Assembly: GCA_951406725.2 (NCBI GenBank)
Contig: OX597828.1
Span: 46,004,001 to 46,068,000 of the forward strand
DNA: 64,000 nucleotides
DNA from: Octopus vulgaris
Taxonomy: Eukaryota
Direction: 5' to 3'
The translations under genes and the position numbers were made by a program. Of the stretch, positions 1-29,937 are shown in pieces. Under the pieces are notes generated by a model. It saw only the letters and a list, made by a program, of their open reading frames with translations. It ran no database searches and was not told where the DNA came from. Position 1 is the first letter of the stretch. The number at the start of each line of letters is the position of its first letter.

Positions 1-376
1 AAATTAGAAAACATTTAGTTATCGAGGAAACTAAAGGACACAATGCTTGCTTGCAGTATTCCTTCCAGCACTTGACGCGTTGAGTTTAAATCACATCCAA
101 CTCAACATTATCTATCATCTCTCCGGCCTCAATAAGATAAGCTGAGTCAAGCACAGGAACCGTTGACATCGACTAGCTCCACCCTCATCTCAAAACTTTT
201 GTTTGCGTACCTAAATTAGAAAATATAACTAATATATTACGGAGATGTAGTTGCATAGCCAGTGACTTGATCTGAGATCGTGTGCTGGAACGAAAACAAT
301 TGCAGCGTGGAAGGTGTTTATAAACCATTTAAGAAACATACAAAATCGTTAGATTCACTTCAACATTTAAATTTAA

Positions 377-421
377 TTTGTCAAAATATTTTCGTCGCTT
401 TCAGACCTGTTCACTGACAAA
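377..421 (-). ncRNA. Minimal type-I hammerhead ribozyme motif, G3:C8 core variant
   Basis: Minus strand reads TTTGTCA-GTGAACA-G-GTC(TGAAAGC)GAC-GAA-AATATT-T-TGACAAA: 7-bp helix I, core GUGAACA, 3-bp helix II, GAAA, palindromic helix III. Confidence 0.6.
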
Positions 422-440
422 ACTTCGTGCAGCACGAAGC

Positions 441-491
441 TTTCTCAGTGAACAGGTTGCGGTCTCAAAGCGACGAAAATAGTTTGACAAA
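441..491 (+). ncRNA. Second hammerhead ribozyme motif (G3:C8 variant), partly mutated
   Basis: TTTCTCA-GTGAACA-G-GTTGC(GGTCTCAAA)GCGAC-GAAAATAGTT-TGACAAA: 5-bp helix II, with one mismatch each in helix I and helix III. Confidence 0.5.
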
Positions 492-1380
492 TTAAATTTA
501 AATGTTGAAGTGAATCTAACGGTTTTGTGTGTTTCTTAAATGGCTTATAAACACCTTCCACGCTGCAACTAATATATTCTTGTTTTGAAATGTTGGTGTC
601 CAATTGTCATTACAAGTCTTATTTCCAGATGTTATATTTAATCCTTTACTTCCAACATTATTTTACTCTTCCCGTCTGGAGTATCCACTTGCTGACAGGA
701 TTCAAATCTTGATTTAGCAACTAGGATACATTTTCTTCAACTCACATTCAGCTGCTCTACATATGTTCTTCAGTTGTCTAAAAGGCTTTTGTTTTCCTTC
801 TGGTATCCATCTTAATGCCATCTTTGGTATCTTTGGTACTTTGTCCGTGACCATTCTGAATGGTACCAAACTTAAAATAGAATAAGTACTGAGGTGGATT
901 TGTTCGACTAAACCGTTCATACCAGTGCTCCAGCATAGACATAGTCCAATGACTGAAACAATTAAAAGAATAAAATAAATATTCTTGAACTCTAAAAAAT
1001 ACCCAATTACATTCTAAGCTCAAATTCTACTAAAATCAACTTCCGCTTTCATCCTTAACATCCTTAAATCTTAATCTATTGATTTATGCTTAAACCGAAC
1101 AAACCAGTGAAGATGCGTTCACGCGATTGCTCATCAGTTTGGAAATAACAGCCACGCTGTGTAGAGACCTACTCTACCATTTCAAAACAAGAACAATACA
1201 ACAGCTAATTTACAAGTTCTTCATAAAAGATAAGACGTAAGATTGGGGAACCCGTTTCAGCGAAAATCACTTCATCACTGTGGACTCGTGTCTAACTTCA
1301 ACAACAATAGCAACAATAAGAACAACATGATATTTTGATAGAGTGAACCACTCGTACAGAGACGCCTATACTAAATTGTT

Positions 1381-1762: not shown

Positions 1763-2190
1763 ACAATAGCAACAATAAGAACAACATGATATTTTGATAG
1801 AGTGAACCACTCGTACAGAAACGCCTATACTAACTAAACATGTCGTGATTAACCTTCAAGAGTCCCTTTTGATCGCTCAGCCTGCTAGAAACAGTAGCCT
1901 ATTTTCCTATAAATTAAACTCCCCTTCAGTAAAATAGAAAGGAGAACATATTTAATTTTTAGTCCTAGATACCTTGATGTTGAATTAAGTTGGAATGGTC
2001 ATGGAATGGTCGTTCAAAGTCTTTGTTGGTTTGTCAAATCAGATCCGATTAAGAATAAAAAAGGATAAGAACAACATGAACCATAACTACAAAAAAAAAA
2101 AAAAAAAAGAACAGCAACGATAGCTGCAACAGTAACAATATAACAAAATATATAGAAAAAAATGTAAAATTATATAAAATTATATATATA

Positions 2191-2362
2191 GGCGCAGGAG
2201 TGGCTGTGTGGTAAGTAGCTTGCTTACCAACCACATGGTTCCGGGTTCAGTCCCACTGCGTGGCATCTTGGGCAAGTGTCTTCTGCTTATAGGCCCGCGC
2301 CGACCAATGCCTTGTGAGTGGATTTGGGAGACGGGAACTGAAAGAAGCCTGTCGTATATATG

Positions 2363-4489: not shown

Positions 4490-5478
4490 AGAAATAAACA
4501 TACCGCAATATGTTGTCAAACGCTCAGATAGAAAAGCGAGGAGTTTATGGTACAGTTGCTGTGTACATCCGAGATGACCTCCCGCCCCAGGTCCTGTTGT
4601 TATATTCGAACTCAGAAGTATTAGAGATTTAATTTTTATTTTTTAATAATTGTAATATCTTCACTACATTATATTTTACTTGTTTCAGTCATTAGACTGC
4701 GCTCATTCTGGAGCATCACATTGTACTTATTTTTAAAGTCTGGTACACATAAGACAACTGAATATCGTCATATGTACTATATATTGCCCACCGGATACCC
4801 CAAACCACACAGGCATGTTTGAAGACTGCCTAACAAAAATAGAAGTTCTCATCAACCTGGAATAACACAGCAGTGTATTATTCATGGGTGCCTTTAACTT
4901 CCCCAATGTCGAATGGCCTGGAGGTAAGATGATACCAGGGATGACACACCATCAGCAAGCACAGGCAGAGTCCCTGCTCCACCTCACAAATGCCTCTTTC
5001 ATTGAGCAAATTGTGCTGCAACCAACCAGGGCAAATAATATACTGGATCTCTGCTTTACAAACAATATGCACATTATCCATAATGTTAAAGTGATGCCGA
5101 CATTGGTCTCGGATTACAACATAATAGAGCTCTCTATGTATGGACCAAAATCCCCCCTCAGACGCAATGCTAAAAATTATAGGCCTATCTATCTGACCTC
5201 ACACATCAGCAAAAGTCATGGAACGAATAGTCTGCAATAAACTAATCATGTTCCTTGAAGAAAATGACTTGCTGACTGACACCCAACTTGGATTTCGACC
5301 AGGTAGAAGCTGTTTAACACAGCTCCTGAAACACTATGACTGGGTGTTAAAACAGCTACAAAATGGCTCAAGTGTGAATGTGATATATTGATATATCTCG
5401 ACTTTGCAAAAGCCTTTGATAAAGTCGACCATGGTATGATCTGTCACAAACTGCGTGGTTTCGGCATAGGCGGAAAAA
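4490..5478 (+). mobile_element. CR1-group LINE ORF2 relic (APE endonuclease plus RT, internally deleted)
   Basis: Motifs VAVYIRDD, GAFNFP, PTRANNILDL, NYRPI, GFRPGRSCLTQLL and YLDFAKAFDKVDH, with frameshifts. Confidence 0.85.
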
Positions 5479-5479
5479 T

Positions 5480-5893
5480 GTTTTCTGGAGCTGTGCTAGA
5501 CTGGATTTTATGTCTAATTCCTCTTATCATCAGTTCAAATCTTTCCGTAGTCTCTCTAATTCAGTGGCTAGGTCCTGGTACTGTTCTAATTTGTCTATAT
5601 ATCTCTCATATTCGTTTTTACTTCATTTAGGGCTGTAAAGTCAATTATCTGGCACTTTCTATTTTCTTTATCTACTTCTACTAAATCAGGACTTTTAGCT
5701 CCAATTACGCTCTCAGTCTGAATGTTAAAATAGCACATCTTCTATGTCTTACTTTCTAGTACTTTACTAGGTCCATCTTCATACCATTTGTTAGTATGTT
5801 CAAATCCTAGCAGTCTACATAACTTCCAGTGGATTACTCTCCCGAGGTTCTCATGTCTTTCCTTTACCCGCACCTTCCATAGTCTCTGTAATT

Positions 5894-28255: not shown

Positions 28256-28625
28256 CACACATACATACATACATACATGCATGCATACATACATACATAC
28301 AAACATACATACATACATACATACATACATACATACATACATACATACATACATACATACATACATACATACATACGTACATACGCACATACATACATAC
28401 ATACTTACATACATACATACATATGCACATACATACATACGTACATATATACATACATGCATACATACATACAAACATACAAACATACATACGCACATAC
28501 ATACATACATACATACATACATACACACACACATACATACATACATACATACATACATACATACATACATACATACATACATACATACATACATACATAC
28601 ATACATGCATACATACATACATACA
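28256..28625. repeat. (TACA)n microsatellite
   Basis: Seen directly; a second array lies at 29492-29935. Confidence 0.95.
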
Positions 28626-29489
28626 TGTAAGATAAATATCAGTGAAAACGAGAATACCTACGCTGAACTATTGAGAAATCTGCAGTTACTCTATCCAGAT
28701 TACATGTTCAGGTTTATACTTGTAATTATTGGGGCACTGGGATATGTAACACACTGCCTAAATATCAATCTTGAGATATTAGGCTTCTCAAAACTAGAAA
28801 GGAGAAAGTTGATTCGAAGACTACTGATTCAATCCAGCGCTGGAACTGTAAAGATCTGTAATACGTTCCAGAAGGTTATCATTTAAGTATATATGAGCAT
28901 GTCTAGTGGAGGCGCAATGGCCTAGTGGTTAGGGCAGCGGACTCGCGGTCATAGGATCGCGGTTTCGATTCCCAGACCGGGCATTGTGAATGTTTATTGA
29001 GCGAAAACACCTAAAGCTCCACGAGGCTCCGGCAGGGGATGGTGGTGATCCCTGCTGTACTCTTTCACCACAACTTTCTCTCACTCTTACTTCCTGTTTC
29101 TGTTGTACCTGTATTTCAAAAGGCCGCCCTTGTCACTCTCTGTGTCACGCTGAATATCCCCGAGAACTACGTTAAGAGTACACGTGTCTGTGGAGAGCTC
29201 AGCCACTTACACGTTAATTTCACGAGCAGGCTCTTCCGTTGATTCGGATCAACCGGAACCCTCGTCGTCGTAACCGACGGAGTGCTTCAATGAGCATGTC
29301 TAGGTTGGCAAGTATATGCATGAGAAGGCATACGTAAAACAAAACATACAAATATGCACATATACATACATAAATACAAACAAAAATATCCAGTTGTTGA
29401 TGCTGAAATTCCAACGAAGAGGCGTTGGATCTAGGTTAGAAACCGGTTCTCTCTCTATTGGTAAGAAATCTTGAAATAAAATGAATAAT
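28626..29489 (+). mobile_element. RLE-type non-LTR retrotransposon 3' end inserted in (TACA)n
   Basis: ENTYAELLRNLQLLYPDY...VIIGALG...KICNTF C-terminus and a 3' UTR with AATAAA. TACA arrays on both sides; a SINE is nested in the UTR. Confidence 0.8.
28908..29288 (+). mobile_element. SINE family B, nested
   Basis: 14-bp TSD ATGAGCATGTCTAG at 28893-28906 and 29290-29303. Confidence 0.92.
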
Positions 29490-29937
29490 GCCATACAATC
29501 ACACATACATGCATACATACATACATACATACATACATACATGCATACACACACACACATACATACATACATACATACATACATACATACATACATACAT
29601 GCATACATACACACACGCATACATACATACATACACACACACACGAATACATACATACATACATACATACACGAATACATACATACATACATACATACAT
29701 ACATACATACATACATACATACATACATACACACGCATACATACATACATACATACACACACGAATACATACATATATACATACACACGCATACATACAT
29801 ACACACGCATATATACATACATACACACGCATACATACATACATACATACATACATGCATGCATACACACACGCATACATACATACATACACACGCATAC
29901 ACACATGCATACACACATACATACAATCATACATACA

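What the first reader, a model, noticed from the sequence alone, without database searches (positions are those of the whole stretch)
239..566. Penelope-type palindrome carrying two divergent minimal hammerhead ribozymes with a swapped G3:C8 core
Seen: a 269-bp palindrome (300-568), a one-sided 60-bp tail and a 12-bp flanking duplication. Each arm has helix I (TTTGTCA/TGACAAA), core GUGAACA, helix II, GAAA and a short palindromic helix III (AATATT). Established: Penelope-like elements carry minimal type-I hammerheads in their pseudo-LTRs, often insert as inverted LTR pairs, and positions 3 and 8 of CUGANGA form a Watson-Crick pair. Inference: GUGAACA is a compensatory C3G/G8C variant with one extra nucleotide after A9, which canonical CUGANGA searches would miss. 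It probably works as a dimer via helix III and may mark an unannotated ribozyme-bearing PLE or retrozyme-like family.
Basis: partly seen in the sequence, partly recalled or inferred. Interest (0 to 1): 0.78.

Follow-up and report, generated by a model that had tools for sequence, protein, structure and literature searches.

The report
Penelope hammerhead with swapped core pair
This palindrome is a decayed insertion made of two back-to-back front ends of a Penelope-like jumping gene, and its family carries a hammerhead-ribozyme motif with two paired core letters swapped (G3:C8) in thousands of copies and in an older sister lineage, so it is likely a natural variant of this self-cutting RNA, though cutting is untested.

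Summary
The palindrome (300-568), one-sided 60-bp tail and 12-bp duplication are real. They are two head-to-head 5' ends of a Penelope-like element (PLE; about 1,070-aa RT plus C-terminal GIY-YIG, Nematis-type linker). The motif lies about 1 kb behind the endonuclease in 29 of 30 loci, and the tail is codons 10-30 of the ORF. It is not a retrozyme. The family is large (5,645 exact 21-mer matches). GUGAACA is the hammerhead core: sister PLE families in this genome share the same helix framework with C3:G8 or U3.G8. An older lineage keeps G3:C8 while loop II, N7, the helix III palindrome and the flanks changed (32/33 versus 52/70 identical, p=0.003). The extra base after A9 is a known PLE feature. 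Both arms at this locus are damaged, lie on opposite strands and would fold into one hairpin, so this copy is probably inactive. Cleavage is not shown, and sampled copies derive from uncleaved RNA. I found no natural G3:C8 in print, but could not read Lunse 2017. The scan has two unchecked G3-C8 notes from other genomes. Verdict: new variant of a known kind.

The parts
227..238 (.). Left target-site duplication (AT-rich; 2-3 nt shared with the element end)
   Evidence: (D11)
239..299 (-). PLE 'tail' = codons ~10-30 of the element's ORF; ends at the distal of two recurrent 3' ends
   Evidence: ORF continues past it in L145/L146; tblastn of the ORF start hits window 328->188; end positions
239..430 (-). 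Left arm: 5' end of the PLE transcript (leader, hammerhead motif, ATG at 328-326, 30 codons)
377..421 (-). Minimal type-I hammerhead motif, G3 (414) : C8 (409), extra G (407); helix II cut to 3 bp by a 6-nt deletion; predicted scissile bond 384/383
428..568 (+). Right arm: same 5' end without tail (ATG at 540-542, ends at codon ~10)
441..491 (+). Second hammerhead motif, G3 (448) : C8 (453); mismatch in helix I (444), wobble in helix II (458), broken helix III palindrome (482); predicted scissile bond 484/485
567..578 (.). Right target-site duplication
   Evidence: (D11)

Best explanation
Window 239-568 is a decayed insertion of two head-to-head copies of the 5' end of a Penelope-like retrotransposon, and that end carries a minimal hammerhead motif whose 3:8 core pair is G3:C8, which is likely a selected and probably still weakly self-cleaving natural variant in the source element. 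How the insertion arose (inferred): the element's GIY-YIG endonuclease nicks both strands of an AT-rich target about 12 bp apart. Its RT primes at two internal sites of the element's own RNA, near codon 10 and codon 30 of the ORF, and copies each towards the 5' end. The two cDNAs join at their ends, giving a palindrome with a one-sided 60-bp tail. What the ribozyme does (inferred): it lies about 15 nt behind the probable capped start, so cleavage after U17 would cut off the cap and a ~45-nt leader, or cut tandem read-through RNA into units. It would work only as a dimer through the palindromic helix III or with help from the PLE protein, acting as a slow processing or down-regulating step; uncleaved RNA is the template for insertion. 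The two arms in this window are probably inactive. Odds: PLE origin 0.97; hammerhead homology with swapped pair 0.93; under selection in the source lineage 0.8; measurable cleavage 0.55.
For: PLE link: 29 of 30 loci picked by the endonuclease carry the motif ~1 kb downstream on the same strand. The ORF has RT motifs (seen by eye) and a GIY-YIG hit above the Pfam cut-off (25.4 vs 22.6 bits), and starts ~90 nt behind G3. No such ORF lies in the window or the 8 kb before it. Two 3' ends: of 48 arms in 30 loci, 19 end at the short site and 26 at the tail site; all 18 inverted pairs (17 distinct) have one long and one short arm. This matches two internal RT start sites in anole Poseidon (PMC11167929). 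Homology: sister families with the same helix I/II framework have C3:G8 in 60 of 92 and U3.G8 in 11 of 92 listed non-family matches, G3:C8 in none (by eye). On 19 hand-picked copies the 3:8 pair forms in 18 (GC 10, UG 4, CG 3, UA 1) and helix II has a G-C/A-U swap; slid controls fall from 90% paired to 17-47%. Fixation: 89 of the first 100 core-blind matches keep G3 and C8, none has C3:G8 (by eye). Selection: consensus of an older lineage (17.7% vs 6.6% copy divergence) is identical at 32 of 33 core/helix positions versus 52 of 70 free positions, p=0.003; its helix III changed from AATATT to AATT, still a palindrome. Engineered C3G/G8C partly restores cleavage in a PLE hammerhead (PMC11167929). 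Probable cap mark: 24 of 38 distinct copies starting at the fixed 5' end have G where the element has C/T.
Against: No cleavage data. 5' ends of 170 arms show no peak at the predicted cut site (1 within 2 nt; sample enriched for intact cores, whose printed cut index of 57 is wrong, the site is at about +45 to +47, where 2 ends lie). About 71% of 279 G8-type matches are mispaired G3.G8 family copies (first 100), several times more than the reverse G3>C change. They do not form one clade, so the excess is unexplained. The helix III duplex is barely stable (-0.2 kcal/mol) and cofolding gives no helix III dimer. No loop I-loop II contact was identified. Minimal PLE hammerheads cleave poorly even with a canonical core, and hammerhead mutants do not impair insertion in vitro. 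The conserved stem could be kept as promoter or protein-binding sequence. The p value rests on one pair of consensus sequences, with 14 of 29 older copies hand-picked for having the 5' part.
Confidence: 0.75

Rival explanations
1. A catalytically dead hammerhead relic kept for another job. The G3:C8 motif is preserved as a fold or sequence for the PLE protein or the internal promoter just behind the start site, and no longer cleaves.
For: Sampled copies contain the uncut 5' part and show no 5'-end peak at the cut site. About 200 G3.G8 copies are estimated. A young sister family with many intact 1,312-aa frames has C at position 9. Hammerhead mutants do not affect insertion in vitro; Naiad PLEs spread without canonical hammerheads.
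Against: Every catalytic position, the 3:8 complementarity and a helix III palindrome were kept across lineages while N7, the one free core position, changed. A promoter or binding role does not predict that pattern.
Confidence: 0.2
2. Neutral founder effect: two chance mutations in one source copy, amplified without selection.
For: Copies within a family share ancestry, so 5,645 matches are not independent; the shuffle control does not correct for relatedness.
Against: G3:C8 persists in a much older lineage whose free positions differ at 18 of 70 plus 11 gap columns, and across subfamilies whose changes cluster in loop II and 5' of helix I.
Confidence: 0.04
3. An independent retrozyme or MITE-like palindromic element.
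For: Most copies are about 200 bp, non-coding, and often palindromic.
Against: The same sequence is the pLTR end and ORF start of RT+GIY-YIG elements. Arm lengths vary and many copies are single arms. No tandem monomer arrays were seen in the loci examined.
Confidence: 0.01

Closest known systems
Minimal type-I hammerheads of metazoan PLEs (Cervera & de la Pena 2014, PMC4209133; parts 1-2 of 4 of the text read, supplement passages seen, one supplement file not searchable)
   Same: In the pLTR; short helix I; extra nucleotide between A9 and G10.1; G10.1-C11.1; palindromic helix III; opposite-strand pairs and solo copies.
   Different: G3:C8 instead of C3:G8 (they report only U3:A8 as covariation); the extra base is G whereas their consensus has H.
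Poseidon of Anolis carolinensis, PAc (Frangieh et al. 2024, PMC11167929; parts 1-2 of 4 read)
   Same: Tail = start of the ORF between two RT start sites; AT-rich targets; uncleaved RNA as template; engineered C3G/G8C partly active.
   Different: PAc has natural C3:G8 and its hammerhead overlaps the start codon; here it lies wholly in the leader. Different PLE clade; tail 60 bp rather than 30-40.
Nematis-clade PLEs (Craig et al. 2021, PMC8557442; passages and supplementary Fig. S1-S2 text seen)
   Same: RT followed by a short CxxxCxxC linker and C-terminal GIY-YIG; (TA)n-rich targets; inverted pLTRs with a tail at one end.
   Different: Clade assigned by eye from the linker only; no tree with reference PLEs was built.
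Natural hammerhead core variants (Perreault et al. 2011, PMC3088659; section 8 and passages read)
   Same: Natural covariation of the 3:8 pair.
   Different: The text reports U3:A8, not G3:C8; figures and supplements not seen.

Membership tests
EN+ Penelope-like element | ORF with RT and C-terminal GIY-YIG linked to the repeat | tested here: met
   29 of 30 EN loci carry the motif downstream
EN+ Penelope-like element | pLTR, inverted 5'-truncated copy, one-sided tail | tested here: met
   L099
Nematis clade | Short Cys linker before GIY-YIG | tested here: met
   by eye against Fig. S2 of PMC8557442
Nematis clade | Groups with Nematis in an RT tree | not tested
   no reference PLE set at hand
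Minimal type-I hammerhead | Core NUGANNA / GAAA / UH with Watson-Crick 3:8 pair | tested here: met
   (as G3:C8)
Minimal type-I hammerhead | Literal CUGANGA consensus | tested here: not met
   0 of first 100 core-blind matches; no Rfam hammerhead hit
Minimal type-I hammerhead | Helices I and II with covariation; extra base after 9; palindromic helix III | tested here: met
   family level; damaged in both window arms
Minimal type-I hammerhead | Dimer formation through helix III | tested here: inconclusive
   duplex -0.2 kcal/mol, not seen in cofold
Minimal type-I hammerhead | Self-cleavage after position 17 | not testable with these tools
   only assembled contigs were available; no 5'-end peak in copies
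Non-LTR retrozyme | Non-coding tandem monomers independent of an ORF | tested here: not met
   sequence runs into the PLE ORF; copies are solo or inverted

The most novel reading that the evidence does not exclude
This PLE lineage has fixed an active G3:C8 hammerhead, the first natural one on record, as a tuned-down, protein-gated switch that uncaps its own mRNA. Related PLEs in the same genome use C3:G8, U3.G8, U3:A8 and an A9C core, so PLEs explore the whole 3:8 pair space and consensus-based ribozyme censuses miss entire families.
Probability: 0.3. Interest if true: 0.7.

Novelty: new variant of a known kind. Interest (0 to 1): 0.48.

Why it matters
Why PLEs carry hammerheads is open, since cleavage is weak and not needed for insertion in vitro. 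A lineage that kept the lab's classic rescue mutant (G3:C8) across a deep split is natural evidence that the catalytic fold is selected. One genome offers matched elements with four 3:8 pairings for side-by-side assays. It also shows that CUGANGA descriptors and Rfam miss thousands of motifs. The locus itself is an ordinary dead insertion.

Tried and rejected
Rfam on the window region and on an intact copy: no hammerhead; the MIR6140 hit is the hairpin only. The first GIY-YIG family search returned other PLE families, mainly a Neptune-like one, not this one; the link came through L099. Metagenome scan for the G3:C8 motif: 0. Sequencing runs: no RNA holder listed; contigs of 4 runs showed presence but no splice joint or ends; a second laying gave no result, so conservation in other organisms is open. 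An intron 3' splice site before the fixed 5' end was considered (branch-point-like CTAAC and pyrimidine tract). It is less favoured because nothing beyond one G is conserved upstream and no GAG|GT donor exists in the pLTR, but it is not excluded. G3.G8 as the evolutionary intermediate was rejected: the older outgroup already has G3:C8 and G3.G8 copies are scattered; that tree is confounded by flanks in short copies and its group table is uninformative. About six older-lineage copies appear to start near the cut site, but their breakpoints are too decayed to count. One search used a mis-indexed helix II; one search replaces it. Literature searches for a natural G3:C8 found only engineered cases. 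Lunse et al. 2017 and Przybilski & Hammann 2007 were not held, so absence from print is not established.

Full report
Observation. The inverted repeat spans 300-568, with a 12-nt direct repeat at 227-238 and 567-578 and an unpaired stretch 239-299. Both arms hold GTGAACA, an extra G, helix II and GAAA. Against an intact copy, the left arm lacks 6 nt of helix II and its loop. The right arm has changes in helix I, helix II and the helix III palindrome. The motifs are on opposite strands, so one transcript carries only one in sense, and it would fold into a hairpin of -197.5 kcal/mol.

Family. The 2.8-Gb genome gave 2,307 candidates for 239-430 (40 scored) and 5,645 exact matches to a 21-nt core pattern, with 0 for the reversed control. 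Named protein relatives are from Octopus vulgaris and a sea cucumber, so the host is probably a cephalopod (inference).

It is a Penelope-like element. Locus L099 shows an inverted tail-less pLTR, a truncated ORF ending in a GIY-YIG domain, then a pLTR with tail. Of 30 loci chosen by that domain (one is the query), 29 carry the motif about 1 kb downstream. A 1,025-aa frame has RT motifs by eye and passes the Pfam GIY-YIG cut-off. In L145 and L146 the sequence runs on into the ORF, which starts about 90 nt after G3; estimated length 1,067 aa. The short cysteine linker resembles Nematis rather than Neptune in Fig. S2 of PMC8557442 (by eye). No such ORF lies in the window or the 8 kb before it.

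How the palindrome formed. In 30 loci chosen by sequence flanking the ribozyme, 48 arms end at two sites 60 nt apart: 19 at the short site, 26 at the tail end, 3 elsewhere. All 18 inverted pairs (17 distinct) combine one long and one short arm. The sites fall near codons 10 and 30. PMC11167929 showed that a PLE RT starts at two sites inside the ORF and that the tail is the sequence between them. I infer priming on both nicked strands and head-to-head joining. Of 170 arms, 90 start within 10 nt of one fixed point, 41 run further into the pLTR and 39 are scattered truncations. Of 39 copies starting exactly there (38 distinct), 25 (24) have a G where the element has C or T, with nothing conserved further up (p about 1e-9 against 18% G; some are inversion junctions). 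A reverse-transcribed cap explains this best (cap-G signature recalled, not from a call). A splice junction is the rival.

GUGAACA is the hammerhead core. Patterns blind to positions 3-9 found sister families with the same helix I and II framework. Of 92 listed matches not from this family, 60 have C3:G8, 11 U3.G8 and none G3:C8 (first 100 of 267, by eye). Their downstream ORF starts resemble this one. On 19 hand-picked copies, including both window arms, 90% of cells pair, the 3:8 pair forms in 18 with four pair types, and helix II swaps G-C for A-U. Slid controls give 17-47%. The shuffle control ignores relatedness.

G3:C8 is fixed and old. Of the first 100 of 3,474 core-blind family matches, 84 read GTGAACA, 89 keep G3 and C8, and none has C3:G8 (by eye). 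An older lineage has C8 in 14 of 14 and G3 in 10 of 14 pattern-found copies (one family-A row dropped). Among 14 of 29 copies found by 3' flank alone and retaining the 5' part, G3 is 9 and C8 11. Copy divergence is 17.7% against 6.6% for the young family. The two consensus sequences match at 32 of 33 core and helix positions (the exception is a CpG wobble) versus 52 of 70 free positions plus 11 gaps, Fisher p=0.003. N7 changed, loop II was replaced, and helix III went from AATT to AATATT, both palindromes.

Against activity. No cleavage is shown. There is no 5'-end peak at the predicted cut, about 45-47 nt from the fixed start (2 of 170 ends there, biased sample; the index 57 printed by that script is an error). 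G3.G8 copies are in unexplained excess (71 of the first 100 of 279, versus few G3>C changes) but do not form one clade. The helix III duplex is marginal. Published minimal PLE hammerheads cleave weakly. In PAc, cleavage needs the protein and is dispensable for insertion, while C3G/G8C partly rescues it.

Known versus new. The extra base after A9, the palindromic helix III, opposite-strand pairs and U3:A8 are all published. G3:C8 appeared only as an engineered mutant in seven searches (passages). Two key papers were unavailable, and the 2026 preprint on animal retrozymes was seen as abstract only. A 2026 Octopus vulgaris repeat annotation does not mention ribozymes in its main text. The scan holds two unchecked notes of G3-C8 motifs behind PLE RTs in other genomes, and none for this genome or sequence.

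Verdict. The locus is an ordinary dead PLE insertion. The family carries a comparatively well-supported natural core variant: new variant of a known kind, interest 0.48.

Noticed in passing
L158-L173 (e.g. L164:1140-1187): Young sister PLE family with many intact ~1,312-aa frames; its hammerhead has C3:G8 but C at the normally invariant A9 (an older copy, L183, has A9).
   Followed up: partly
L038, L040, L041, L044, L049, L062, L065: Neptune-like PLE family (781-aa RT-EN frame overlapping an upstream ORF) with a U3:A8 hammerhead, no extra base, and a palindromic helix III.
   Followed up: partly
L226, L230, L246, L247, L249, L252, L261, L262, L346: Old sister family in which U3.G8 wobble looks like the majority core, a possible step between 3:8 pair types.
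   Followed up: partly
L224-L253: Excess of mispaired G3.G8 copies within the family, not one clade; unexplained.
   Followed up: partly
L319-L347: Sister family with canonical core but an apparently imperfect first pair of helix I after the cleavage site.
   Followed up: no
L194-L223: Every inverted pair joins one long and one short arm (17 of 17 distinct), suggesting coupled use of the two RT start sites, unlike the strand-indifferent use reported in vitro.
   Followed up: partly
window 28522-28627 and 29551-29809: 76-79% matches to the upstream, microsatellite-rich part of this family's pLTR.
   Followed up: no
window 1304-1374 and 1763-1833: 71-bp direct repeat (99%) around a ~390-bp insert, an unusually long duplication for a SINE-like insertion.
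   Followed up: no
window 2180-2350 and 4866-5630: SINE-like repeat (identity recalled, not from a call) and broken LINE-like endonuclease/RT fragments.
   Followed up: no
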